Virus record (IMG/VR): IMGVR_UViG_3300036820_000009
Location: 29,726-93,725 of that record
Origin: a virus
Reading direction: 5' to 3' (one strand)
DNA length: 64,000 bases
The position numbers and the translations under genes were made by a program. The notes below the pieces were generated by a model. That model searched no databases. It saw only the letters and a program-made list of their open reading frames with translations, and had not been told where the DNA came from. Shown here piece after piece: positions 39,463 to 50,240 of the stretch (positions within the stretch are counted from its first letter, which is position 1; each line of letters starts with the position of its first letter).

Positions 39463-40158
39463 TCACGCGGTCGCGAATCCGCTTACGGCAAGTGTTGCGG
39501 TTTGCCGCGACTTGGAAAACCAGCTTCCGACTGTATTGAAATGACACCCAAAATAATCGGCGATCTGTTTTTGCGTCCAGTGTTGATTGTTATACAGATC
39601 CAGTGCCTCTTTTTTCTCTTCGCTGGAATAGATGATCGGGTGTTCTTTTTTCTTCCGGCCCAGCATGAGATCGCCAAGTTTCCGGGATCCTTGAAGCTCG
39701 GCGCCTTTCGCGAAAATTTCCTCGTAGAGATTGATCCAGTGGTCGACGCTGATTTGCGGCGAAATCGAATTCCACCAATTGTCGCTATAGTCTTGCGACA
39801 GGATCACGCGGTCCAGTAGCCATGCCATGCGCTGAATCCCATCATGGCATTCCGCGGCATGGAATGAAAATTCGCAATAGAGTTCGCGCTTACTGTCGGC
39901 CGCGCGATATTTTCCCTGCGCGATGCGCATCGTCTTGCAGTCGGCGCAATAACAATTGCGCGCATGCCCGGAAACGCGTCGCTTCGCCTGCTTGATTACT
40001 TCGAACTTGGCGCGCCAATCGACGCACACCAGGCATGAGCAATCCGGATCGACAGCCGAATAGTCGCTGTGCGCCAGGGCGCTACGCTGTACCACTTGGT
40101 TCCGATCTCCCCACCGGCAGCGCGATGCCATTGCCGCGATATACCGCATCGATGGCAT
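39463..40158 (-). CDS. Cys-rich protein with C-terminal HTH (start uncertain)
   Basis: CSCLVC, CYCADC; WTQKQIADYFGCHFNTVGSW. Confidence 0.55.
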   Translation of the reverse strand: MPSMRYIAAMASRCRWGDRNQVVQRSALAHSDYSAVDPDCSCLVCVDWRAKFEVIKQAKRRVSGHARNCYCADCKTMRIAQGKYRAADSKRELYCEFSFHAAECHDGIQRMAWLLDRVILSQDYSDNWWNSISPQISVDHWINLYEEIFAKGAELQGSRKLGDLMLGRKKKEHPIIYSSEEKKEALDLYNNQHWTQKQIADYFGCHFNTVGSWFSKSRQTATLAVSGFATA

Positions 40159-43100
40159 CGATATAATCCGAACTTTCGATTCCGTTCAAGTCAACCGAGA
40201 CAATGTCTTCGTTGAAGAAGCGCATCCATTCCGCGAGCCAGCTCATGACCGCGATATGGCCATGGCTGCTGCCGAACGTGTCGAGACACATCTGGCAGGC
40301 GCCCTTGCGATAGCCCTGATCGCAGGATCGGCCGTTTTGCATGAGGTCGCGGCGCGCGCATACCGATTCGGCATTGATCGGCCGGTATTCCACCGGCACG
40401 CCGAGCCGCACCAGGAACCCGAGCATCGCCGGCGGCGCTTCGCCGAGCTCGGTCACGACGATCTTATCGATGCCCATCAGCGCGATCGACGGCACCGCCG
40501 CTTTCGGATTGCGGATATCGAACGGCAGCGTGTTTTCGAGCGGCGGCTTGGCGAACCGCGCCTTGAATCCGGTGACCTCCAACTCATAGATCGCGTCGCC
40601 ATCGCGCCATTCGTCGAACATGGAGCGGTCCGGTCCGAGCATCAGAATCCGCTGGAACGGCCAATCCTGGTCGCGCCAGGGCCAAGGCAACGGCGGCCAG
40701 ACAAAATGATCCATGTTGAGGCCCGCCACCACCATGCCGCCCTGAAGCAGGTAGATCACCAGGTTCGAATTCCAGTAGCGATCGATATCGGGATAGCGTT
40801 CGCCGATGATGGTGCCTTCGTCGCGCAAGAGCCGCATGCCCTCTTCGCTGTTGGACTTGGTACGCGTCACGCCTTCGAAGTGCTGAAGCTGCGCGCGACA
40901 GGCGACGATATTGAAATAGTTTCGCCGGCGCAGTTCGAGGCAGAACGCGACGTCGTTGTAATTGTGTGACAGATATTCCGGGAATCCGCCGACTTCATCG
41001 AAAAGCTGCCGCCGCACCACCATGCAGGCGCCGGTGACGCACGAATTTTCGTGCGACAGCATCGCCAGCCCGTGATAGCCCGGCAAATGCGCCGGCAGGC
41101 CTTTGTGCAGGTGGCCATTGTTGCCGCGGTGCGAAATCACGCCGATGTGCTGGATGGCGCCATGCGGATAGAGCAGTTTGGCGCCAATCGCGCCGGCGCC
41201 TGGCGCGTAGGTTGCCGCCACCATCTCGCTGAGCCAGATCGGCGCCAGGATCCGCGTGTCGTCATTGAGGAAACACAGAATTTCGCTGTCGGTCTGGCTC
41301 ACCGCGAAATTGTTGAGTTTCGACCAATTATAGGGCTCGGCCCATACCAGGATCTCGATCCGCTTGTCGGTCAACGAATCCAGGTAGCTGAGCATTTCCG
41401 GATTGTCGCTGCCGTTGTCGACGATCAGCACGTCGAAATTCTTGTATGTCGTCATGCTCAGCAGCGTGTTGAGGCACGGCATCAGCATTTCGACGCGATT
41501 CTTGGTCGGAATGATAATCGTGACTTTCGGCTCTTCGCGATAGCCACCGACATATTGGACTTCGTGGCAGTCGTGAATCACCGGATGCTGGCAGACATTG
41601 ACCGGCATGCCATATCGCTTGGCATGCGCATCGGCGAGCGCGGCTTTCTTAGGCGCGTTCGCGCGCAACACGGCGGGATCGACCGGCGCCAGATGCGCGC
41701 AAATCCGCTGCACGTGACCGATACTGTCGCGGCCACAGGTTTCGATCGTGCGCAGCGCCAATTCGTAAAACAGCACATCGCTGTCGGTATCGGCGGCGCA
41801 CGCCGGCAGCAACCGCGATGCCAGCAGGCCTTCGATCGCCATCAGCGGCGTCACGTAATCCAGGCCGAGGAAATAATGGTGATCGAAGTCGGGCTTGAAA
41901 TGATGATCGCCACGCAGGCCCTTTTCGTTGAGGATATCGTGATCGCTATAGATCAGCTTGACGGCGAGATTCTTTTCCAGCTCCGTGACATAGATGCTGA
42001 AGAAGTCGTCGATTTCGGTGGTGGCGGCCGCGCACACGATCCAATCGATATTGGCATCGATCGCGGCCTGGAGCTCGGCGCGATCGTGCGCGATCGTCAT
42101 GGTCGGCATGCCGGCCAGCGCTTTCCATTTTTCGATGGCCGCGAGATCGCGCGGGCCCGGCGTATCGAAGATCGCGGCCCATAGCGGATATTCGGTCCGA
42201 TGCCGCTGTTCCGGCAATCCGCGGTACCGCAATCGGTGAAACGCGAGTTCGAGTTCCTGGCGCGCCTGCGTAATGGCGGGCTGATCGGCCTTGCCCGGTG
42301 GCCACCGCAAGCCCATGCGCAGCGCGATTTCATTGGCCAGCGTCGCCGGCGTGCCGCGCGGTTCCTTCGAATAGAGATAGAAATCGAACCGAATCACATT
42401 TTCGAATCCGCGCGCCGCCGCCATGCCGCTCCATTCGATGATCGCCATTTCCGTGTTGCCGATGCGGAAATCGGGAAATCCGATCGTTTCCAGCGCGGCG
42501 CGCCGGATCAGCATGCAGGGTCCGGTCGCGATGCCGGTGCTGGCAACCTGATCCTCGAAAATATCCTTGGCGGTTTCGTGGATGCCGTCAGCGGTGGCCG
42601 CATCGATCGCGGTAAACGAATTCATCTTGGGAAACCCGGTATAGGCGCCATCGTTCGAGAAGAACGAAATTGTTGCCAGTTTCGGATTTCCGGTGCGCCG
42701 CAACCGCTCGATCATGTCGGGCGGCAGCACGATCGAATCGCGGACGTAGAGAATATCGGCCGTGGTGTCTTCGCAGATCGATTGCAGATCGGACACCGTC
42801 GTCGTGATGCCATTGACCGTGGCTTGCTTGCCGACGACGACAATGACGCCGTTCTTGCCGCCGGCGCGCGCCGCGGCGCTATCGAGCGCGGGCTCGAAGG
42901 CGCGGATTCCCTTGGGCAACCAGCCTTCCATGCGCTCGGCCGCCTTGGTGTCGAGACAATAATGGCGCTTGGCCCAGGTATGAAGCCGCTGCGCATGATC
43001 GCCACGCTGCGAATCGGACAGCGTCATGAACATGGCGATGGCGGCGATCCATTCGTCGGCGGTGGCGCAATGCGCATAAACCGGCGGCGCGTTCTCGACA

Positions 43101-43954
43101 TAGGGCGCGACCCGCGACGCGATCACCGGATAGACGCAGGCGCCGGCTTCGATCAATCGCAGGTTCGATTTGCAGCGATTGAAATGATTGTCGTCGAGCG
43201 GCGCGATCATCAAATCGACATCGAGATTCGCCAGCGCCACCAGATATTGGTTCGGCGGTACCGCGCCGGCGAAAAACTTCGATACGCCCAGCGGCGTGTC
43301 CGGATCCATGCCGAGAAAGCACCAATCCACCGTGTCGCCGAAATGTTCGAAGACGGGCTTCATCATGCCGAAATCGGCGGTGTGCCCGATGCCGCCGCCC
43401 CAGCCGATGCGAAACTTATTGTGCTTTTTCGGCGGCCGTTGGCGCGGGTTCCGCGCGGCGAACCGCGCCTGATGCGCATTCTCGAAATCGTCGATGCCGA
43501 GCATGTTGGGAATGACGCGGACATCGATATCGCCACAGATATCGCGCATATGGGTCGCGAGATTGCGCGTGGTGACCGATACCGCATCGCACAGCGCGAC
43601 GCTATTCTTGATGCCGCGATTGATGTTGGGCGGCAGGAACGGTTTGTGCCAGCTCGTATCCGGCACGTCGGCGATCGCGTCGTCGATCTCGTAAACGAAA
43701 AACGCATCGGGCAGCGCGGTCCGATAGCGCTGCATCATTTCGAGCTGGCCATCGCCCTGCCGCTGCCATACCACGACGTCCGGTGCCAGCACCTTGAGAT
43801 ACTGCTCGGGCATGAAATTGAATTCGGCGCGGCCGGTGGCGACGCCGGCGCGCATCATGATTTCGAGCGGCCGCAGAATGCGATGATAGCCACAGCCCTG
43901 ATTGTCGCCGGGATGGGCCAGGATATAGGGCGGACGATTCAATCTGCTGGACAC
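40082..43954 (-). CDS. Multidomain glycosyltransferase (~1290 aa; N-terminal GT4-like, C-terminal GT2 domains)
   Basis: YEIDD, RIGWGGGIGH, APLDDNHFNRCKSNLRLIE; IIIPTKN, FLNDDT, VTGACM, NDVAFCL; GTG start after GGAG. Confidence 0.88.
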   Translation of the reverse strand: MSSRLNRPPYILAHPGDNQGCGYHRILRPLEIMMRAGVATGRAEFNFMPEQYLKVLAPDVVVWQRQGDGQLEMMQRYRTALPDAFFVYEIDDAIADVPDTSWHKPFLPPNINRGIKNSVALCDAVSVTTRNLATHMRDICGDIDVRVIPNMLGIDDFENAHQARFAARNPRQRPPKKHNKFRIGWGGGIGHTADFGMMKPVFEHFGDTVDWCFLGMDPDTPLGVSKFFAGAVPPNQYLVALANLDVDLMIAPLDDNHFNRCKSNLRLIEAGACVYPVIASRVAPYVENAPPVYAHCATADEWIAAIAMFMTLSDSQRGDHAQRLHTWAKRHYCLDTKAAERMEGWLPKGIRAFEPALDSAAARAGGKNGVIVVVGKQATVNGITTTVSDLQSICEDTTADILYVRDSIVLPPDMIERLRRTGNPKLATISFFSNDGAYTGFPKMNSFTAIDAATADGIHETAKDIFEDQVASTGIATGPCMLIRRAALETIGFPDFRIGNTEMAIIEWSGMAAARGFENVIRFDFYLYSKEPRGTPATLANEIALRMGLRWPPGKADQPAITQARQELELAFHRLRYRGLPEQRHRTEYPLWAAIFDTPGPRDLAAIEKWKALAGMPTMTIAHDRAELQAAIDANIDWIVCAAATTEIDDFFSIYVTELEKNLAVKLIYSDHDILNEKGLRGDHHFKPDFDHHYFLGLDYVTPLMAIEGLLASRLLPACAADTDSDVLFYELALRTIETCGRDSIGHVQRICAHLAPVDPAVLRANAPKKAALADAHAKRYGMPVNVCQHPVIHDCHEVQYVGGYREEPKVTIIIPTKNRVEMLMPCLNTLLSMTTYKNFDVLIVDNGSDNPEMLSYLDSLTDKRIEILVWAEPYNWSKLNNFAVSQTDSEILCFLNDDTRILAPIWLSEMVAATYAPGAGAIGAKLLYPHGAIQHIGVISHRGNNGHLHKGLPAHLPGYHGLAMLSHENSCVTGACMVVRRQLFDEVGGFPEYLSHNYNDVAFCLELRRRNYFNIVACRAQLQHFEGVTRTKSNSEEGMRLLRDEGTIIGERYPDIDRYWNSNLVIYLLQGGMVVAGLNMDHFVWPPLPWPWRDQDWPFQRILMLGPDRSMFDEWRDGDAIYELEVTGFKARFAKPPLENTLPFDIRNPKAAVPSIALMGIDKIVVTELGEAPPAMLGFLVRLGVPVEYRPINAESVCARRDLMQNGRSCDQGYRKGACQMCLDTFGSSHGHIAVMSWLAEWMRFFNEDIVSVDLNGIESSDYIDAIDAVYRGNGIALPVGRSEPSGTA

Positions 43955-44352
43955 GTGAGCTCCGTTTTTGGATCGGAAAGAAAGGAATGGCTGAGGTTGC
44001 GGGTGAAATAATTGGTGCTGACGGGATCGTCCGACGCGCCTTCGGCGCCGCCGTAATGGACGCATAGATCGTCGGTCCCGGCTTCGTAGGTCCGGCAGGC
44101 GTGTGGCCGATTGGCGTAATCGCCGCAGCGACCGTTCGGCAACAGATTAAAGCACCACCAGACCCAATTGCCGTCACGGCGCCGATAGAGCGGCATGAAC
44201 GATAAAGGATGTTCCTCGAATCCGCTTTGCGCCGCCATCTGCACGATCGCTTCGAGTGCGGTCTCGACCGTGGCGACCCGCGGATCACCCGATAGGATTA
44301 CCGCGCGACAGCAATTGCCCGGCACGAAACACGAATCGCAAACCGACATCAA
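43939..44352 (-). CDS. YkgJ-like zinc/iron-chelating cysteine-cluster protein
   Basis: CDSC...CC, C..L...GRCGDYANRPHACRTY. Confidence 0.7.
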   Translation of the reverse strand: MMSVCDSCFVPGNCCRAVILSGDPRVATVETALEAIVQMAAQSGFEEHPLSFMPLYRRRDGNWVWWCFNLLPNGRCGDYANRPHACRTYEAGTDDLCVHYGGAEGASDDPVSTNYFTRNLSHSFLSDPKTELTCPAD

Positions 44353-46058
44353 GCCGCCCGTTTTGTTTCGGTCGCACTATTCCGTCTGACGCCGCTGATC
44401 TTGCCGTGCGCCTCGGACCGCGCCGGATCCTTCGATGGCTTGAACGGCGCACCCGCGGACTCGCCATCCTTGCCATCGGTATCGAGGCCCAACATGGCTT
44501 CGAGCATGGTGGCGGCCATGGTCTGGAACGCATTGGTTTTGCCCGGATCCGCGGGGCAGAGCCCGAGAATGATCGCCAGCGGTTCCAGTTCCTTGTGATC
44601 CTTCACCATTTCGACCAGCTTCGGCCTGCCCGCCATGACGCGCTGTTCGTCGAAGGTGCAGGCATTCATTTTCGCTTCGTATTGCCGCGCATCCTCTTTT
44701 GGATTTTTGCCGGTAAACACAAACTGCAAATGCGGCCAGCGCGACCACAGCAGATATTCGTTGATGAAGGCTTCGATGTGCCCGAGCAGCGGCGCCAGGC
44801 CGGGATCGTCTTCATCGACCGCGTTGCCCGATGAATCCGGCAACGGTTCGGTATCGCGGCCCTTGCCGCTGATCCGATAGCCGAGCCGGCGCGCCGGGAA
44901 TCGATAGATGCAGCAGAACAGGCCGGCCAGCATGTTCATCCATTCCTCGTAATATCCCTCCATCCCTTTGACCGATGAGAGATCGACGAGTTCGAATTTC
45001 GCTTCGCCCGACAGGCCGACCACCGGCATCGCCCATGCCTTGGTGATACCGCGCTTCATGTTGGTCCACAGCCGATTGAAAATGTCGAGCTGGCGCTGCG
45101 TGACCGAGCCGCCGGTGATGGTCAGGATCGCGTTCGGAATGCCATTGCGATTGAACACGTCGACATTGAGATCGATCGCGTTCTGGAACCCTTGAATCAG
45201 CCGGATCGCGATTTCGATTTCGCTATAGCCGTAGCCCGACGCAAAGAGATCGCCGGATACCGCGACGTCCGTCCGCGTGTTGCGGACATAGAAAGTGAGC
45301 TGTTCGCGCGTAAATTCCTGGACAACCTTGCCGCCCTGGTCGACGCCGACCGCGAAGATCTTCGGATCGCCTTTGTAGCCGCGCTTCGCGGTCAGCCGGA
45401 TATTGCCGGCGGGCAGCAGCGAATAGCCCTTGACCTTGTCGTCGCCGGTCATGTCGGTCCACAGCGCCAGCCCGTCATAGGTCAGCATGTCGCGCACCGC
45501 GGCCGCCAGGAAATTCTTGAACCCAAGACACCGCGCTTCGTCGCGCTTGCGGGCTTGCGCATATGTCGTTTCGGCATTGGAATTGAGAATGAAGCGCTGC
45601 GCTTCCAGGATTTCCTTCGCCAGCGTATCGGACTGCTCTTCCTTTTTCTCGCGCGCCTCGATGCGCCAGCCCGGTTTCCAGATCTCCGTCGACAGATCCG
45701 AATAACGCTGCACGTCATCGCAGCGCATGCCGATCACGACTTGCGGCGCCACGTTCTCGCGCGCGATTTTTTGCAGCGCTTCCGGCGCGATGCCGGGCCA
45801 TGGCAGTACGCCGGTCGCATTGGGATCCGGCATGTATTCGATGCGGCCATAGGCGAAATCGCCCGGCGGCAGATTGAGCGATTTCAGCGCGGCGGGAAGC
45901 CCGCTCCCGCCCATGTCCTTGAACAGGCCCTCGAAAAAGCTGACATAGCCTTCGTGATCGAGCGCGGTAACATTGCCGATCGATCCGGCACTCGGCAGCC
46001 TAACCGCCGAGTCCCCCTGATTCGCGTCAAATGGTTCGCGTGTCGGACCTTCTGACAT
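44349..46058 (-). CDS. Portal protein
   Basis: Follows terL; VRDMLTYD, GYGYSEIE, NGIPNAIL, PGLAPLLGHIEAFIN. Confidence 0.82.
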   Translation of the reverse strand: MSEGPTREPFDANQGDSAVRLPSAGSIGNVTALDHEGYVSFFEGLFKDMGGSGLPAALKSLNLPPGDFAYGRIEYMPDPNATGVLPWPGIAPEALQKIARENVAPQVVIGMRCDDVQRYSDLSTEIWKPGWRIEAREKKEEQSDTLAKEILEAQRFILNSNAETTYAQARKRDEARCLGFKNFLAAAVRDMLTYDGLALWTDMTGDDKVKGYSLLPAGNIRLTAKRGYKGDPKIFAVGVDQGGKVVQEFTREQLTFYVRNTRTDVAVSGDLFASGYGYSEIEIAIRLIQGFQNAIDLNVDVFNRNGIPNAILTITGGSVTQRQLDIFNRLWTNMKRGITKAWAMPVVGLSGEAKFELVDLSSVKGMEGYYEEWMNMLAGLFCCIYRFPARRLGYRISGKGRDTEPLPDSSGNAVDEDDPGLAPLLGHIEAFINEYLLWSRWPHLQFVFTGKNPKEDARQYEAKMNACTFDEQRVMAGRPKLVEMVKDHKELEPLAIILGLCPADPGKTNAFQTMAATMLEAMLGLDTDGKDGESAGAPFKPSKDPARSEAHGKISGVRRNSATETKRAA

Positions 46059-47163
46059 AGCCCCCGCCATCCGAAACTGGCCGGTCCACCAGCTCGACAT
46101 GTTCGCAACAATCCATCGGAATCATAGGACGGCGCCAGAGTCCGCACCAGCCTTTTTCATAATGCGTACAGTTCGAACAGCTCGTCGCGTAGGGATCGAC
46201 CACCATCGACGGCAGCTCGTCGATGAACATGAGGGCTTCGAGCCGCGGATCGGCGATGCCGTGATTGACCGCCTTGCTCGCCTCGATCAGGTCCGGCGGC
46301 GCGGTGTCGGGCGACCAATCGCTGGGCAGCAGCATGGTCTTGGCGCCCAACTGGATCGCATAGGTGACGAGATGCACGAACGCGTCGACCTGATCGCTGA
46401 CCGCGTCATCGATGCCCGAGAAATCCTTGAGCTCGGTTTCGAACGTCTTGAGCCAGCGCGCGGTTTGCGGGAATAGCACCCGATGCTGCCGGCACCAGCC
46501 CTGAACCGAGCCGGCTTCGGTGCCGCTGATCGCGCGCGCGCGCTTGCCTTCCTTGGCTTCGACGCCCTGGATGTTGATGTTGGCGCCGGGCATCGATTGC
46601 AGAATCGAGATACCGGATGCGCGGTTCTCGACCAGCACCAGCTCCGGCCGCCACTTCATGTGCTGTTGCCGCACCGCGAGCGGCAGGCTGCCCCAATCCA
46701 TCTTCTTGCGGAACACGTCAAGAATCAGCACGTCGAAATGGGCATCGCATGGCCCATTGATCTTCTCGTCTTCGCCGCAGTGATACTTGCTGCACGGTAG
46801 CAGCAATCCGGTCACGCAGACCGACCAGGCCGAGCCCGCGGTTTCGGAAAACGCCGTATCCCATGCCTGGAAAATGCCGTGCCCATGTTCGCAGAATTTA
46901 GCGACCGATGGCGCATTGATGCCGTACCACAGCGCTTCCGGCGGCACGTAATAGAGAAAATCCTTTTTGAGGAAGATCGAGCCTTCGCGCGCGCCCGGCC
47001 GCTGCTGATAGATGGCTTCGAAATCGGCGGGACTGTTGCGGCGAACCGCGGTGACTTCGCGTCGTTTCTGATCGGAGGTCGGCCAAAAAAACGCTTCGTT
47101 CCGATCCGCCCACGCTTCATCATAGCCGTAGGTGACTTTGAGTTTGATCAGGCCGTCGCTCAT
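46027..47163 (-). CDS. terL: Terminase large subunit, C-terminal part (lid remainder plus nuclease)
   Basis: FEAIYQQRP, WDTAF, LVENRASGISILQ, DQVDAF. Confidence 0.85.
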   Translation of the reverse strand: MSDGLIKLKVTYGYDEAWADRNEAFFWPTSDQKRREVTAVRRNSPADFEAIYQQRPGAREGSIFLKKDFLYYVPPEALWYGINAPSVAKFCEHGHGIFQAWDTAFSETAGSAWSVCVTGLLLPCSKYHCGEDEKINGPCDAHFDVLILDVFRKKMDWGSLPLAVRQQHMKWRPELVLVENRASGISILQSMPGANINIQGVEAKEGKRARAISGTEAGSVQGWCRQHRVLFPQTARWLKTFETELKDFSGIDDAVSDQVDAFVHLVTYAIQLGAKTMLLPSDWSPDTAPPDLIEASKAVNHGIADPRLEALMFIDELPSMVVDPYATSCSNCTHYEKGWCGLWRRPMIPMDCCEHVELVDRPVSDGGGYVRRSDTRTI

Positions 47164-47177
47164 TGTTGGGGCATACC

Positions 47178-48023
47178 ATGCGACAGAAAATTATTCTACG
47201 GCGGGCTGGCGCGCTCGGCGACGTGCTGTGCGCCACGCCGATCGCGCGGCGCCTGCGGCAGCTCAACCCCGCTGCCGAAATCGTCGGCCAGACCAATGTG
47301 CCGGAAGCGCTCGCGGAAAATATCTGGATTGACCGCGTCATCCCGATGAATCAGCGGGAACCGGATGCCGAGCTGATCGATCTCGATCTCGCCTATGAGC
47401 GGCGCCCCACCATGCATATCGTCGATGCCTACATGGAAGCCGCCGGCATCGACGGCGATAAGACGCCCTGCTTCGGCCGGTTCCATCCAACAGGCACAAC
47501 CCACAAGATCGAGTTCATCGCCATCCATGCCGCGCGCGCGTGGCCGAGCCGGACATTCAGCCCGGCGTTTTGGGATACGGTGATCACCGTGCTGCTCCAC
47601 AAATTTTCCTATCCGATTGTCTTGGTCGGCCACGGCGGCGATTATCGTGTCGCGCATGACCGGGTGATCAATATGGTGGGCCGGCTGACGCTGGCCGAAA
47701 CCCGGCTCATGATCGAAACAGCCGGCCTGCTCGTGTGCAACGATTCGGGCATGCTGCACCTGGCCGGCACCACGCGCGCCGCCATTGTCGGCTTGTTCAC
47801 GTCGGTCAAGGCGGCCTATCGATTGCCGTATCGCGATGGCGTGCTCGGCTGGAATTGCGCGGCGATCGAGGCACCGATCGGCTGCTACGGGTGTCTCGCC
47901 GAGGCGCCGGTGCCGAGCACCAATCTGGTTTGCCGCCGCGGCGACAATGCCTGCGTGACATCGATCGAGCCGGCGGCGGTGGTGGATCAGGTCGCAACTT
48001 TCGTCGCCGGCAACGCAATGTGA
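47178..48023 (+). CDS. Glycosyltransferase family 9 (heptosyltransferase-like)
   Basis: RAGALGDVLCATP, VCNDSGMLHLAG, VGLF, CYGC motifs. Confidence 0.88.
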   Translation: MRQKIILRRAGALGDVLCATPIARRLRQLNPAAEIVGQTNVPEALAENIWIDRVIPMNQREPDAELIDLDLAYERRPTMHIVDAYMEAAGIDGDKTPCFGRFHPTGTTHKIEFIAIHAARAWPSRTFSPAFWDTVITVLLHKFSYPIVLVGHGGDYRVAHDRVINMVGRLTLAETRLMIETAGLLVCNDSGMLHLAGTTRAAIVGLFTSVKAAYRLPYRDGVLGWNCAAIEAPIGCYGCLAEAPVPSTNLVCRRGDNACVTSIEPAAVVDQVATFVAGNAM

Positions 48024-48808
48024 TCGGTGAAGCAGCATTTGAGATCGGCCGGCAGCGTCACATCCCAAAACAGCTCGTTGGTGCCCTCGCGAATCGCCTG
48101 CAATTCCATGGTGACAAATTCGCCGCCATCGCGCCAATGCCCGTAGACGTCGTCTTCGTGCCAGCGCCGGCCAGCGCCGATGAAGCGCGCGCCGTTGGGA
48201 TCGGCGCGGCCGATCAGCGTGTCGTAATAGATATCGCGCACGATTTCGCATTGCTTGGCGTTGGCGGAATTTTCGCGGTTGTGGATGTCATCCATCAGGA
48301 TGACGCTGCCGTGCTTGCCGGTGATGACGCTCGATGTCACGCCGGCCACGAAATACGATGAATCGGGGTTGCCGAGATTGCGGCCGGTGACATAGATCCC
48401 GCGCTCGGTCGACCAGCCCGCCACCTTGTCGGGCATGACGGTCGGAAAGAACATGCGCCATTCCGGCGACCATTCGATCCAATCCATCACCGTTTTGAGG
48501 AAGCCTTGCATCAGCGTTTCGCCGGCGCTGGTGCCGAGCACGGTGCTGTCGGGCCGTTGGCCGATTTCGAATGCCGGGAACGCGCATGACAGCAGCAGCG
48601 ATTTGCCGGATCCCGGCGCTTGCAGAATCAGCAATTTTAGAATTCGCGGATCCATGAGCGCGTGCGCGACCGGATAGAGATGCGGCGGCAGCCCGAATCC
48701 GCGCGACTTGAACATGGCATTGTAGAAAGTGATTAATCCTTCGGCGCTATACGGCAGTATCGGCTGGACTTGTTTCTGCCGGCGCGACTGTGTCGCTTCC
48801 TTCGCCAT
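47987..48808 (-). CDS. terL: Terminase large subunit, N-terminal ATPase part
   Basis: PPHL, Walker A APGSGKS, ITGKHG, Walker B ILMDD, RRWHEDD. Confidence 0.85.
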   Translation of the reverse strand: MAKEATQSRRQKQVQPILPYSAEGLITFYNAMFKSRGFGLPPHLYPVAHALMDPRILKLLILQAPGSGKSLLLSCAFPAFEIGQRPDSTVLGTSAGETLMQGFLKTVMDWIEWSPEWRMFFPTVMPDKVAGWSTERGIYVTGRNLGNPDSSYFVAGVTSSVITGKHGSVILMDDIHNRENSANAKQCEIVRDIYYDTLIGRADPNGARFIGAGRRWHEDDVYGHWRDGGEFVTMELQAIREGTNELFWDVTLPADLKCCFTDHIALPATKVAT

Positions 48809-49349
48809 AGAATTCCCCATCGTCGACGGAGTGACCTTCCCCATCGATCGTTGGCGCGTCGACAATCGACACGCGCATGAAATCGCGCGATTTGGCCAGC
48901 GAGTCCTCGAACATCGTCTTGAGCTCGGACCGCAACATTTCGCGAACTTTTTCCTCGCCGTGATCGATTTGGATGACCTGTTTTTCGTTCCATCCGAATT
49001 GAGTCTTGGCGAGGAATTCCAGCAACCGCGGATTCGGCGCGCGTTCCGCCTGCACCATGTTGTTGCTGGCATCGAATTCCGCCGGCGCGCCGATCGCGGT
49101 GGTGAACACGGCTTTCGACAGATTGGCCTTCATCAGCACGGCGCCGGTCTGGACTTCGCGATCGAAAATCCGGTGCATGGTCGCCTTGGAGATCGGCCGG
49201 CCGGTCGCCGGATTGATGATCAGCAGGCAGATTTCGTCATGGCCGAGCGTGCTATAGCCAATGAGCCGCTCGACGAGATCGCGCTGGAATTTCGTCGGAT
49301 AGAAGGTCGCGTCGGGATCGGCGACAGGCAATGACGGGACAGCAGTCAT
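48747..49349 (-). CDS. Terminase small subunit
   Basis: Immediately upstream of and overlapping terL; HTH-like N-terminus, EFLAKTQFGWNEK. Confidence 0.65.
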   Translation of the reverse strand: MTAVPSLPVADPDATFYPTKFQRDLVERLIGYSTLGHDEICLLIINPATGRPISKATMHRIFDREVQTGAVLMKANLSKAVFTTAIGAPAEFDASNNMVQAERAPNPRLLEFLAKTQFGWNEKQVIQIDHGEEKVREMLRSELKTMFEDSLAKSRDFMRVSIVDAPTIDGEGHSVDDGEFYGEGSDTVAPAETSPADTAV

Positions 49350-49610
49350 GCTTCATCATTTGCGCCAAATCGCGTGCCCGTCAACCGCGAGAGCGCTTGC
49401 GGATGCGGCACCGGCCGCCACGGCTCGATGCGATCGGGACAGAATACCAGCCGCAAATAGGTTTCATCCAGCACGCACGGCGGTTGCCGGATGCCGAAAT
49501 GCAGCCACCGCCGCCAGCCGGTGCGCGCATGCCGCGGATGGTAGCAGCGCCAGGATCCGCCGTGATAGGGCCGTTCCAGGAATACGCAGGTCGTTGGCCT
49601 GGTTTGCATG

Positions 49611-50240
49611 TCAGGTACCCGTGCCCCAATGCGATAGGCCGAGCCGCGTCTTTTCCCATTCCTGATCGGAATCGTCCGCCACCTGTGGATTCATGATTTG
49701 CCATTCGCCGGCCATGCTCGGCGGCACCACGAAAATCGCCATGGCGCCCAAGCGGATCAGCGAAGCGAGCCCGCGCTTGCCGGCTTCGTTCATTTGCGCC
49801 ATCACCGCCGGCGCGCGCCACGCCGCGGGATAGCCGCTGTCGACCCAAACCTGGATTACCCGAATGGTTTTCTTGTTGCCGTATTCATCGGTCGCGATTA
49901 CGTCATCCTCCATAATGTCGAATACCACATGCGATCGATTGGGCTTCAGCCCGTCCGGCATATCCGATTTGACCAGCCACATGCAGGACCATAAATGGCA
50001 ATCGATCGGCCGCGTGTCATAAATCGCGCAGCAGGTGCCGGCCTTTCCGATCCGCGCATGATCACACCATTTGTTGCGTACCTTCGCGATCGATTTGACC
50101 GGCAGCAATTTGCAGCACAGCGCGCAGTCGCCACAGGCGCGCTTCGGCACCGGAAAATTCGGAATGACGTCTTGCGGGCGCACCTCGCCGGCTTTTATGC
50201 GTCGCATGTTTTTATCGTGTTCTTCCTGGGTATAGTTCAT
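49611..50240 (-). CDS. YkgJ-like cysteine-cluster protein
   Basis: CGDCALCCK, WCDH, CAIYDTRPIDC..WSCMWL. Confidence 0.7.
   Translation of the reverse strand: MNYTQEEHDKNMRRIKAGEVRPQDVIPNFPVPKRACGDCALCCKLLPVKSIAKVRNKWCDHARIGKAGTCCAIYDTRPIDCHLWSCMWLVKSDMPDGLKPNRSHVVFDIMEDDVIATDEYGNKKTIRVIQVWVDSGYPAAWRAPAVMAQMNEAGKRGLASLIRLGAMAIFVVPPSMAGEWQIMNPQVADDSDQEWEKTRLGLSHWGTGT

What the first reader, a model, noticed from the sequence alone, without database searches (positions are those of the whole stretch)
46027..48808. Large terminase split in two by an antisense GT9 glycosyltransferase gene
Seen: TerL-N (48808-47987; Walker A/B, RRWHEDD) stops. An intact 281-aa GT9 gene on the + strand fills essentially the whole ~830-bp gap. 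TerL-C then restarts at its own ATG (47163), only 14 bp head-to-head with the GT9 ATG (47178). The last ~12 codons of TerL-N are antisense GT9 sequence. I see no room for a group I/II intron fold, no intein motifs and no in-frame flanking direct repeat. Established: terL interruptions are usually introns or inteins carrying homing endonucleases, not sugar enzymes. Inference: the break falls before the conserved YQQRP segment, likely inside the ATPase lid, so the phage may build its packaging motor from two co-folding polypeptides. TerL-C has no SD, and its expression could be coupled to antisense GT9 transcription.
Basis: partly seen in the sequence, partly recalled or inferred. Interest (0 to 1): 0.85.

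Follow-up and report, generated by a model that had tools for sequence, protein, structure and literature searches.

The report
Two-gene phage terminase with cargo slot
This 94-kb uncultured phage, like many of its relatives, encodes its DNA-packaging enzyme as two separate genes, and the space between them is a swap site for accessory genes, here a sugar-transferase gene that fills a split it did not cause.

Summary
TerL-N (47987-48808, -) carries the Walker A, Walker B and GRRWHEDD motifs. An intact 281-aa GT9-like gene (47178-48023, +) fills the gap. TerL-C (46027-47163, -) starts 14 bp from the GT9 ATG.

The title's causal reading is not supported. The two halves add up to one complete T7-type large terminase with nothing lost or duplicated. 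They are the only terminase pieces found in this complete genome.

The same cut recurs in 9 other related viral contigs examined, and about 24 stand-alone TerL-C and 48 stand-alone TerL-N protein clusters exist. Two relatives have the halves adjacent with no insert. Others hold 1 to 7 different genes in the gap, including Mom, ribonucleotide reductase plus Dam, methyltransferases, and GT9 in either orientation.

Predicted folds place the cut between the RecA-like ATPase core and the helical lid segment, so lid and nuclease sit on TerL-C. I found no intron, and the tails are too short for an intein. The motor is most likely built from two non-covalently joined chains, which is inferred and not shown.

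I found no paper describing this arrangement. This scan has already reported the same phenomenon on at least six other genomes.

The parts
47987..48808 (-). terL-N: the RecA-like ATPase core of the large terminase (273 aa). Walker A is at 48599-48619, Walker B at 48287-48301, GRRWHEDD at residues 213-220. The conserved end is ...CCFTD(H) at residues ~258-263, followed by a 10-aa non-conserved tail.
   Evidence: phrog_38 positions 270-490, E 2.5e-36. AF2 model pLDDT 89.8. Model residues 14-251 align to PhiV-1 TerL 8dgc_E residues 9-244 (Z 22.6, rmsd 2.7, 223 aligned) and to T4 gp17 residues 99-315 (Z 17.5). NCBIfam termin_lrg_T7 matches weakly, below its cut-off.
47178..48023 (+). Cargo gene: a compact GT9-superfamily glycosyltransferase (281 aa), antisense to terL. 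It has the RRxGALGDV and DSxxLHLAG motifs and four conserved Cys (C236, C239, C252, C259). Its acceptor is unknown.
   Evidence: Pfam PF01075 at 37.3 bits, cut-off 22. A family profile hits PDB GT9 3tov (E 1.6e-11), WaaF 1psw (E 2.3e-10) and TibC. It scores far below all NCBIfam heptosyltransferase cut-offs, 33 against 134-185 bits. About 65 metagenomic clusters of 260-330 aa are related. Conservation is shown.
47987..48023 (.). A 37-nt overlap: the non-conserved terL-N tail (12 codons plus stop) is read antisense through the 3' end of GT9.
   Evidence: Sequence reading. L003 TerL-N ends at the conserved CCFTDY with no such tail.
47164..47177 (.). A 14-bp spacer between the divergent ATGs of terL-C and GT9. 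It has no room for promoters, so each 5' UTR must lie inside the other gene.
   Evidence: The promoter scan finds no sigma-70-like site here.
46993..47163 (-). terL-C residues 1-57: a three-helix lid/linker segment of the ATPase domain, carrying the conserved YG.D...F[FY]WP...KR.E...YQQRPG motifs.
   Evidence: AF2 helices at 16-21, 31-43 and 45-52. Whole-model alignments to full-length D6E TerL begin at model residues 1-20 and chain residues 160-194, upstream of the nuclease. This segment corresponds to PhiV-1 TerL ~245-294 and T4 gp17 ~316-360.
46336..46992 (-). terL-C residues 58-276: the RNase-H-like terminase nuclease domain (D102, E179, D257/D260).
   Evidence: G20c nuclease 5m1o (Z 16.1, rmsd 3.0, 168 aligned), PhiV-1 TerL 295-535 (Z 15.9), T4 gp17 361-561 (Z 15.2). 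phrog_38 positions 489-714.
46105..46179 (-). terL-C C-terminal four-Cys motif (C329, C332, C340, C353), invariant in split and fused relatives. It is probably a small zinc-binding module.
   Evidence: Invariant columns in 35 sequences. pLDDT is about 94 over residues 330-350.
44349..46100 (-). Portal gene directly downstream of terL-C, overlapping it by 74 nt as listed.
   Evidence: phrog_15361 and phrog_12 portal, E 5e-17 and 4e-14. The same terL-C to portal order is seen in L003, L004, L005, L024, L025 and L026.
48747..49349 (-). A 200-aa ORF directly upstream of terL-N with no family match. It is a small-terminase candidate by position only.
   Evidence: No Pfam or PHROG hit. The assignment rests on position and is an inference.

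Best explanation
The phage's only large terminase is encoded as two separately translated genes. TerL-N is the RecA-like ATPase core. TerL-C is the ATPase lid/linker helices, the RNase-H-like nuclease and a Cys4 tail. The two chains most likely reassemble non-covalently through the interface that is intramolecular in single-chain relatives, and then form the packaging ring on the portal. The split was inherited from the phage's lineage; in this phage's own subclade every member examined is split, though across the wider family the split/fused state has changed several times. The junction between the two genes has become a slot where accessory genes are gained, lost, inverted and exchanged. In this phage the slot holds exactly one gene, a divergent GT9 glycosyltransferase on the opposite strand. 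That gene probably belongs to the phage's dispersed sugar-modification toolkit and plays no part in packaging. terL-C is probably translated from a late transcript that reads through the antisense GT9 region. Shown here: the anatomy, the complementarity of the halves, their conservation, and the variable cargo. Inferred: separate translation, chain assembly and the transcription pattern.
For: (1) The halves are exactly complementary. phrog_38 matches positions 270-490 and 489-714. In fused relatives the two window proteins abut, for example P0034 (TerL-N residues 10-262 on target 2-254, TerL-C residues 3-370 on target 255-622), and also P0026, P0012 and L021. (2) These are the only TerL pieces in the complete, DTR-bounded 93.7-kb genome. 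phrog_38 hits only these two places, and PF03237 and PF03354 hit nothing. (3) Catalytic motifs are invariant in both halves across sequences that share only 35-56% identity. (4) The same cut is seen in independent contigs with different gap contents. L028 has an ATGA overlap and L004 a 44-nt overlap, both without an insert. L005 has one unknown gene. L027 has a Mom-family gene. The window has GT9. L003 has 5 genes, L024 has 5, L026 has RNR large and small subunits plus Dam, and L025 has about 7 genes in 5.9 kb. (5) Among 1.8 billion representative proteins, about 24 clusters are stand-alone TerL-C of 340-390 aa, starting with their own Met at the same place, against about 25 fused proteins of 606-674 aa. 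48 clusters are stand-alone TerL-N. (6) Both halves fold confidently on their own (pLDDT 89.8 and 82.9) as the ATPase core and as lid plus nuclease. (7) No Rfam intron was found. The non-conserved tails are about 10 aa and at most 6 aa, too short for a split intein.
Against: There is no direct evidence of two proteins, of their association or of packaging activity; no transcript or proteome data are available. No multimer prediction could be run. terL-C has no Shine-Dalgarno motif and its 5' UTR is antisense to GT9, so its expression route is unknown. From memory and unchecked here: separately expressed T4 gp17 domains were reported not to support packaging when mixed, so trans-assembly is not trivially expected. 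An unknown RNA-level joining mechanism cannot be formally excluded by sequence alone.
Confidence: 0.8

Rival explanations
1. One reading: a recent insertion of the GT9 gene cut a formerly single terL gene in this phage, and the two-chain state is a fresh accident that happens to be tolerated.
For: GT9 fills the gap almost to the base and overlaps the TerL-N tail. Fused relatives exist in the same family.
Against: All ten members of the window's own clade are split. The split exists without any insert (L004, L028) and with unrelated cargo (L005, L026, L027). GT9 homologues of only 41-45% identity occupy the same slot in L003, L024 and L025, so both the cargo and the split are old. There are no target-site duplications or terminal repeats.
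Confidence: 0.07
2. A single TerL chain is restored after transcription or translation, by an unrecognised intron, trans-splicing, ribosomal bypass or a split intein.
For: terL genes are often interrupted by group I introns and inteins, for example in Jug phages (PMC12880540). Relatives of this very family carry inteins in Walker A. In L004 the homology is contiguous at the DNA level with a +1 frame change.
Against: The Rfam E<=10 scan of 45500-49500 finds no ribozyme. The whole gap is an antisense coding gene under selection. Gaps in relatives are 0 to 5.9 kb with unrelated content, so no common RNA element can lie there. The halves are in different frames. The tails are far too short for intein halves, and each TerL-C has its own conserved Met start.
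Confidence: 0.06
3. The locus is a decaying terminase in a defective element, or an assembly chimera.
For: The record is a metagenome assembly and read support cannot be checked here.
Against: The genome is DTR-bounded and CheckV rates it 100% complete. Catalytic residues are intact. The same architecture is found in independent samples (L003, L025). This is the only TerL in the genome.
Confidence: 0.03

Closest known systems
Single-chain T7-type large terminase (PhiV-1 TerL, PDB 8dgc_E; also T4 gp17 3cpe/2o0j, P74-26/G20c, D6E, Sf6 gp2, HK97 TerL)
   Same: The same two catalytic modules and motifs. TerL-N residues 14-251 align to PhiV-1 TerL 9-244 (Z 22.6) and TerL-C residues 57-278 to 295-535 (Z 15.9). 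The gene sits next to the portal gene.
   Different: The known enzymes are one polypeptide. Here the chain is cut between the ATPase core and the lid/linker helices, with a gene in between, and there is an extra C-terminal Cys4 module.
Genes-in-pieces of T4-like phages: Aeromonas phage Aeh1 NrdA-a/NrdA-b, split by the mobE endonuclease gene (Crona et al. 2011, PMC3045599)
   Same: An essential enzyme is encoded as two separately translated genes with another gene between them. Function is restored by protein-protein assembly, without RNA or protein splicing.
   Different: In Aeh1 the intervening gene is a mobile homing endonuclease that caused the split, and insertion-derived tails are essential. 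Here no endonuclease was recognised in the gaps scanned, the cargo is variable accessory genes, the tails are about 10 aa and at most 6 aa, and the split is clade-wide.
Intron- or intein-interrupted terL genes (Jug phages, PMC12880540; Mic1 TerL inteins, PMC7156551; Twort-like phages)
   Same: terL is interrupted by foreign DNA. Relatives in this family do carry inteins in Walker A (L027, P0024, P0035, P0038, P0048).
   Different: Those elements splice and restore one chain. Here no ribozyme or intein blocks are present at the cut.
Herpesvirus terminase gene UL15/UL89: two exons with 2 to 5 genes inside the intron (PMC6466031)
   Same: In a related virus realm, the terminase ATPase-nuclease gene is in two parts with unrelated genes nested between them.
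   Different: Herpesviruses splice the mRNA into one protein. The exon junction lies elsewhere, between Walker A and Walker B (from memory, not tested).
GT9 heptosyltransferases (WaaC, WaaF, TibC)
   Same: The cargo protein matches Pfam PF01075, and its family profile hits PDB GT9 members.
   Different: It is shorter (281 aa against 320-400), scores far below every NCBIfam heptosyltransferase cut-off, has an added four-Cys cluster, and is known only from phage-size metagenomic contigs. Its donor and acceptor are unknown.

Membership tests
Large terminase (TerL) | N-terminal P-loop ATPase with Walker A, Walker B and a RecA-like fold | tested here: met
   APGSGKS and ILMDD are invariant. The model matches PhiV-1 TerL at Z 22.6 and T4 gp17 ATPase at Z 17.5. 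phrog_38 E 2.5e-36.
Large terminase (TerL) | C-terminal RNase-H-like nuclease with conserved acidic residues | tested here: met
   The model matches G20c, RB49, T4 and Sf6 nucleases at Z 14-16. D102, E179 and D257/D260 are invariant.
Large terminase (TerL) | Both activities on one polypeptide (canonical architecture) | tested here: not met
   There are two ORFs in different frames, 823 bp apart (47164-47986), with an antisense gene between them. The same holds in 9 related contigs.
Group I/II intron-interrupted gene | A ribozyme core between the exons | tested here: not met
   The Rfam 15 scan of 45500-49500 at E<=10 gave no intron family. The gap is filled by a conserved antisense ORF. A novel ribozyme class cannot be excluded.
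Intein / split intein | Intein N- and C-blocks (about 100 aa plus about 35 aa) flanking the cut | tested here: not met
   Against fused relatives, TerL-N has only about 10 extra residues and TerL-C at most 6. Real inteins in relatives sit at Walker A, not at this site.
Genes-in-pieces split by a free-standing homing endonuclease (Aeh1 nrdA type) | A homing-endonuclease gene occupies the gap | tested here: not met
   Gap genes scanned with Pfam gave GT9, methyltransferases, RNR, Dam, Mom, GT34, SLOG, CxxCxxCC, or no match. None was an HNH, GIY-YIG or LAGLIDADG protein.
Genes-in-pieces (Aeh1 nrdA type) | The two chains assemble into an active enzyme | not testable with these tools
   This needs co-expression or proteomics. 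No multimer prediction was available.
Glycosyltransferase family 9 | Pfam PF01075 above the gathering score, with the GT-B nucleotide-sugar motifs | tested here: met
   37.3 bits against 22. RRxGALGDV and DSxxLHLAG are invariant. PDB 3tov and 1psw are hit by the profile.
LPS heptosyltransferase I/II/III (equivalogs) | Score above the NCBIfam equivalog cut-off | tested here: not met
   Best score is 33.1 bits against a cut-off of 134.6 (TIGR02195). The others are lower.

The most novel reading that the evidence does not exclude
The split is adaptive and not merely tolerated. Separating the ATPase core from the lid-nuclease could let the phage set the dose or timing of the two chains independently. 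It could also blunt bacterial sensors that recognise the folded single-chain terminase (Avs-type NLRs; the best structural match of TerL-N is the Avs3-bound PhiV-1 terminase). The junction would then serve as a dedicated, highly expressed landing pad for exchangeable accessory genes. In this phage, antisense GT9 transcription could gate TerL-C synthesis.
Probability: 0.12. Interest if true: 0.85.

Novelty: new variant of a known kind. Interest (0 to 1): 0.6.

Why it matters
Current models of viral DNA packaging treat TerL as one chain, in which ATP-driven movement of the lid/linker relative to the ATPase core moves the nuclease-DNA grip. A large natural clade has that covalent link cut exactly at the core/lid boundary. 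This would show that the link is dispensable. It would also offer a ready-made two-piece motor for biochemistry, because the two halves could be labelled, mutated and titrated separately. The variable gap shows that the middle of an essential late gene can act as a gene-exchange hotspot. In practice, neither half matched any Pfam family here and the stand-alone TerL-N clusters are named 'hypothetical protein' where named at all, so terminase-based phage detection, completeness scoring and phylogeny could miss or mis-score such phages.

Tried and rejected
- Pfam finds no terminase family in either half.
- A direct sequence search of the PDB with either half finds nothing relevant. Only the predicted folds gave matches.
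- The isolate-phage collection holds only distant fused relatives at 22-33% identity, for example Roseobacter phage CRP-810, which has a single 540-aa TerL.
- The scan of 185,579 species genomes found only distant relatives (at most 31% identity), so it gave no host and no prophage for the split clade.
Viral-contig loci were used instead.
- The promoter and terminator scan of 45800-49600 is at chance level and gives no expression model.
- Repeats flanking GT9 are only short chance matches, so there is no sign of a transposon or an invertible segment.
- Split intein: rejected on tail lengths.
- Readthrough by the phage's own amber suppressor tRNA (noted by an earlier finding): rejected, because TerL-N ends in TGA and TerL-C is in another frame 823 bp away.
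- Single origin of the split: the tree needs at least 3 changes on well-supported branches. The AU test rejects split forms as one group (p 0.015), with a long-branch caveat. The state has therefore flipped several times, by fission or by re-fusion.
- Six literature searches found no description of a natural intron-less, intein-less two-gene TerL. The library is incomplete, so this is absence of evidence only.
Full report
**Observation**

The window is the last 64 kb of a 93,725-bp IMG/VR virus record with direct terminal repeats, rated 100% complete by CheckV.

- TerL-N is 47987-48808 (-), 273 aa, ending in TGA.
- The GT9-like gene is 47178-48023 (+), 281 aa.
- TerL-C is 46027-47163 (-), 378 aa.
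- 14 bp separate the two divergent ATGs.
- 37 nt of the TerL-N tail overlap the GT9 3' end.

Pfam sees no terminase in either half. PHROG phrog_38 (terminase large subunit) matches TerL-N at profile positions 270-490 (E 2.5e-36) and TerL-C at 489-714 (E 1.7e-21). The two ORFs are therefore exactly complementary pieces of one TerL. GT9 passes the Pfam PF01075 threshold (37.3 bits against 22).

**Only terminase in the genome**

A search of the whole record finds phrog_38 only at these two places, and finds no Terminase_6N or TerL_ATPase match anywhere. The locus is not a relic beside a working copy.

**Relatives**

Scans of IMG/VR with the halves, and with an alignment of stand-alone TerL-C proteins, recovered related contigs. 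tblastn and ORF maps give the series below.

| Locus | Gap between the halves | Gap content |
|---|---|---|
| L028 | ATGA overlap | none |
| L004 | 44-nt overlap, different frame | none |
| L005 / L031 | 0.6 kb | one same-strand 204-aa gene of unknown function |
| L027 | about 0.7-0.9 kb | one Mom-family gene (its TerL-N also carries a mini-intein in Walker A) |
| window | 0.8 kb | GT9, antisense |
| L003 | 2.9 kb | five genes: two unknown, then antisense GT9, a TylF-type methyltransferase and a SAM methyltransferase |
| L024 | 3.1 kb | five genes: methyltransferase, unknown, GT9 on the same strand, then antisense SLOG and GT34 genes |
| L026 | 3.7 kb | ribonucleotide reductase large and small subunits plus a Dam methylase |
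| L025 | 5.9 kb | about seven genes, including a DUF4214 protein, a CxxCxxCC protein, GT9 and a methyltransferase |

More distant relatives (L006-L022, L029, L032, L033) have one fused ORF.

In fused proteins the two window proteins abut without gap or overlap. In P0034, TerL-N residues 10-262 align to target 2-254 and TerL-C residues 3-370 align to target 255-622. In L021, TerL-N residue 257 is followed directly by TerL-C residue 9.

**Breadth**

A HMMER search of TerL-C against 1.84 billion representative proteins gave 55 hits below 1e-30. About 24 are 340-390-aa proteins that begin with their own Met at the same place (consensus M..K..YG.DP..GF[FY]WP). About 25 are fused proteins of 606-674 aa. 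Several proteins of 780-990 aa carry inteins at Walker A.

A search with TerL-N found 48 further clusters of stand-alone TerL-N. Most are about 250-300 aa and share 49-66% identity with the window's protein. They have no precomputed Pfam domain and, where a source names them at all, are called 'hypothetical protein'.

On a TerL-C tree the split forms cluster strongly, and all ten members of the window's clade are split. They are not one group, however. At least three state changes are forced by well-supported branches, and an AU test rejects a single split clade (p 0.015) (long branches are a caveat). The split/fused state has therefore changed several times at this one site. That is easy to picture, because adjacent overlapping halves (L004, L028) are one small indel away from a fusion.

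**Where the cut lies**

AlphaFold2 models were built with family alignments: TerL-N at pLDDT 89.8 and TerL-C at 82.9.

- TerL-N residues 14-251 superpose on PhiV-1 (T7-type) TerL residues 9-244 (Z 22.6, rmsd 2.7 Å, 223 residues) and on T4 gp17 residues 99-315 (Z 17.5).
- TerL-C residues 58-276 superpose on terminase nucleases: G20c at Z 16.1, PhiV-1 295-535 at Z 15.9, and T4 gp17 361-561 at Z 15.2.
- The first ~57 residues of TerL-C form three helices that carry the YQQRPG motif. Alignments to full-length D6E TerL extend upstream of its nuclease domain, starting at chain residues 160-194. By elimination this segment corresponds to PhiV-1 ~245-294 and to T4 gp17 ~316-360, the second part of N-subdomain II plus the hinge. 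That domain naming is from memory.

Both edges of the cut are conserved motifs (...L.C[CV]FT and YG.DP), and they are joined in fused forms by a short variable linker.

**Splicing and other rescue routes**

An Rfam scan with permissive filters over 45500-49500 gives one irrelevant weak hit and no intron family. The gap is a conserved coding gene on the other strand. In relatives the gap content is unrelated and ranges from 0 to 5.9 kb, so no shared RNA element can be there.

The non-conserved tails (about 10 aa on TerL-N and at most 6 aa on TerL-C) exclude a split intein. The three minus-strand frames differ, and TerL-N ends in TGA. Readthrough by the phage's amber suppressor tRNA, noted elsewhere in this genome, is therefore irrelevant. 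No direct or inverted repeats beyond chance flank GT9.

**Expression**

TerL-C has no Shine-Dalgarno motif (upstream sequence ...ATGCCCCAACA|ATG). About half of 21 gene starts inspected in this phage also lack one, so this is not special. In relatives TerL-C starts by stop-start coupling (L005, L028) or has a G-rich motif (L003). The consensus promoter and terminator scan is at chance level. The likeliest route is a late transcript running from terL-N through the antisense GT9 region into terL-C and the portal gene. This is an inference.

**The cargo**

GT9 homologues from the window, L003, L024, L025 and metagenomic proteins share 35-49% identity. They keep the GT9 motifs RRxGALGDV and DSxxLHLAG plus four invariant cysteines. 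The family profile hits PDB GT9 proteins: 3tov at E 1.6e-11, WaaF at E 2.3e-10, and TibC. The protein scores far below every NCBIfam heptosyltransferase cut-off.

It is an intact, divergent, phage-borne GT9-superfamily enzyme of unknown substrate. A 1327-aa multi-domain glycosyltransferase lies between the portal and protease genes, and CxxCxxCC proteins are nearby. GT9 is probably part of a dispersed sugar-modification toolkit.

**Comparison with what is known**

Interrupted terL genes are known, but through introns and inteins (PMC12880540, PMC7156551). The herpesvirus terminase gene has genes nested between two exons but is spliced (PMC6466031). The closest mechanistic precedent is the Aeh1 NrdA enzyme, which is assembled from two chains after a homing-endonuclease insertion (PMC3045599). 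Here no endonuclease is involved and the state is clade-wide.

Six full-text searches found no description of a natural two-gene TerL. The library is incomplete, so this is only absence of evidence. This scan's own notes report the same phenomenon on at least six other genomes, one of them also with a glycosyltransferase in the gap. I reached the same reading independently before looking.

**Verdict**

The 'two co-folding polypeptides' idea is supported by strong comparative evidence, though it is not demonstrated. The idea that GT9 split the gene is not supported. This is a new variant of a known enzyme, of moderate to high interest to the packaging-motor field and of practical relevance for phage annotation.

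Noticed in passing
window 46105-46179 (-): The TerL-C C-terminus carries four invariant cysteines (CxxC...C...C) in both split and fused relatives, modelled with high confidence. It is probably a zinc module. I do not recall such a module in the solved TerLs.
   Followed up: partly
window 40082-44065 (-): A 1327-aa multi-domain glycosyltransferase (an N-terminal phrog_7162 glycosyltransferase region plus a GT2 domain) sits between the portal and head-protease genes. It is a second sugar-enzyme cargo inside the virion operon.
   Followed up: partly
window 43939-44352 (-); L025:2759-3277 (-): Small CxxCxxCC (PF03692) proteins accompany the packaging genes. One follows the portal gene in the window, and another lies inside the terL gap of L025. 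The 209-aa ORF at window 49611-50240 also shows a CxxCxxCC-like motif by eye, but it had no Pfam match and hits only phrog_9155 (unknown function).
   Followed up: no
L027:4034-4494; proteins P0011, P0024, P0032, P0033, P0035, P0038, P0048: Relatives of this TerL carry inteins inserted in the Walker A P-loop (equivalent to TerL-N residues 67-69). Some show LAGLIDADG-like motifs. L027 has both an intein and the split.
   Followed up: partly
L004:1605-1648: The TerL halves overlap by 44 nt, and the homology is contiguous at the DNA level with a +1 frame change. This could be a very recent fission, a sequencing frameshift or programmed frameshifting.
   Followed up: no
L026:2523-5965: Ribonucleotide reductase large and small subunits and a Dam methylase lie between the two terminase halves of a related phage, all on the terL strand.
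   Followed up: partly
L002:774-2055: A distant TerL (about 25% identity) also has its ATPase and nuclease matches in different frames (frame 3, then frame 1). It may be an independent split or a frameshift.
   Followed up: no
protein P0226: A stand-alone TerL-N at 62% identity, on an 80.7-kb contig, is deposited as a 'Patescibacteria group bacterium' MAG protein. The contig is probably a phage contig binned into a bacterial genome.
   Followed up: no
window 48716-48808: The source's gene call for TerL-N (P0220, 242 aa) starts about 31 codons later than the ATG at 48808. Alignment with relatives favours a start at or near 48808.
   Followed up: partly
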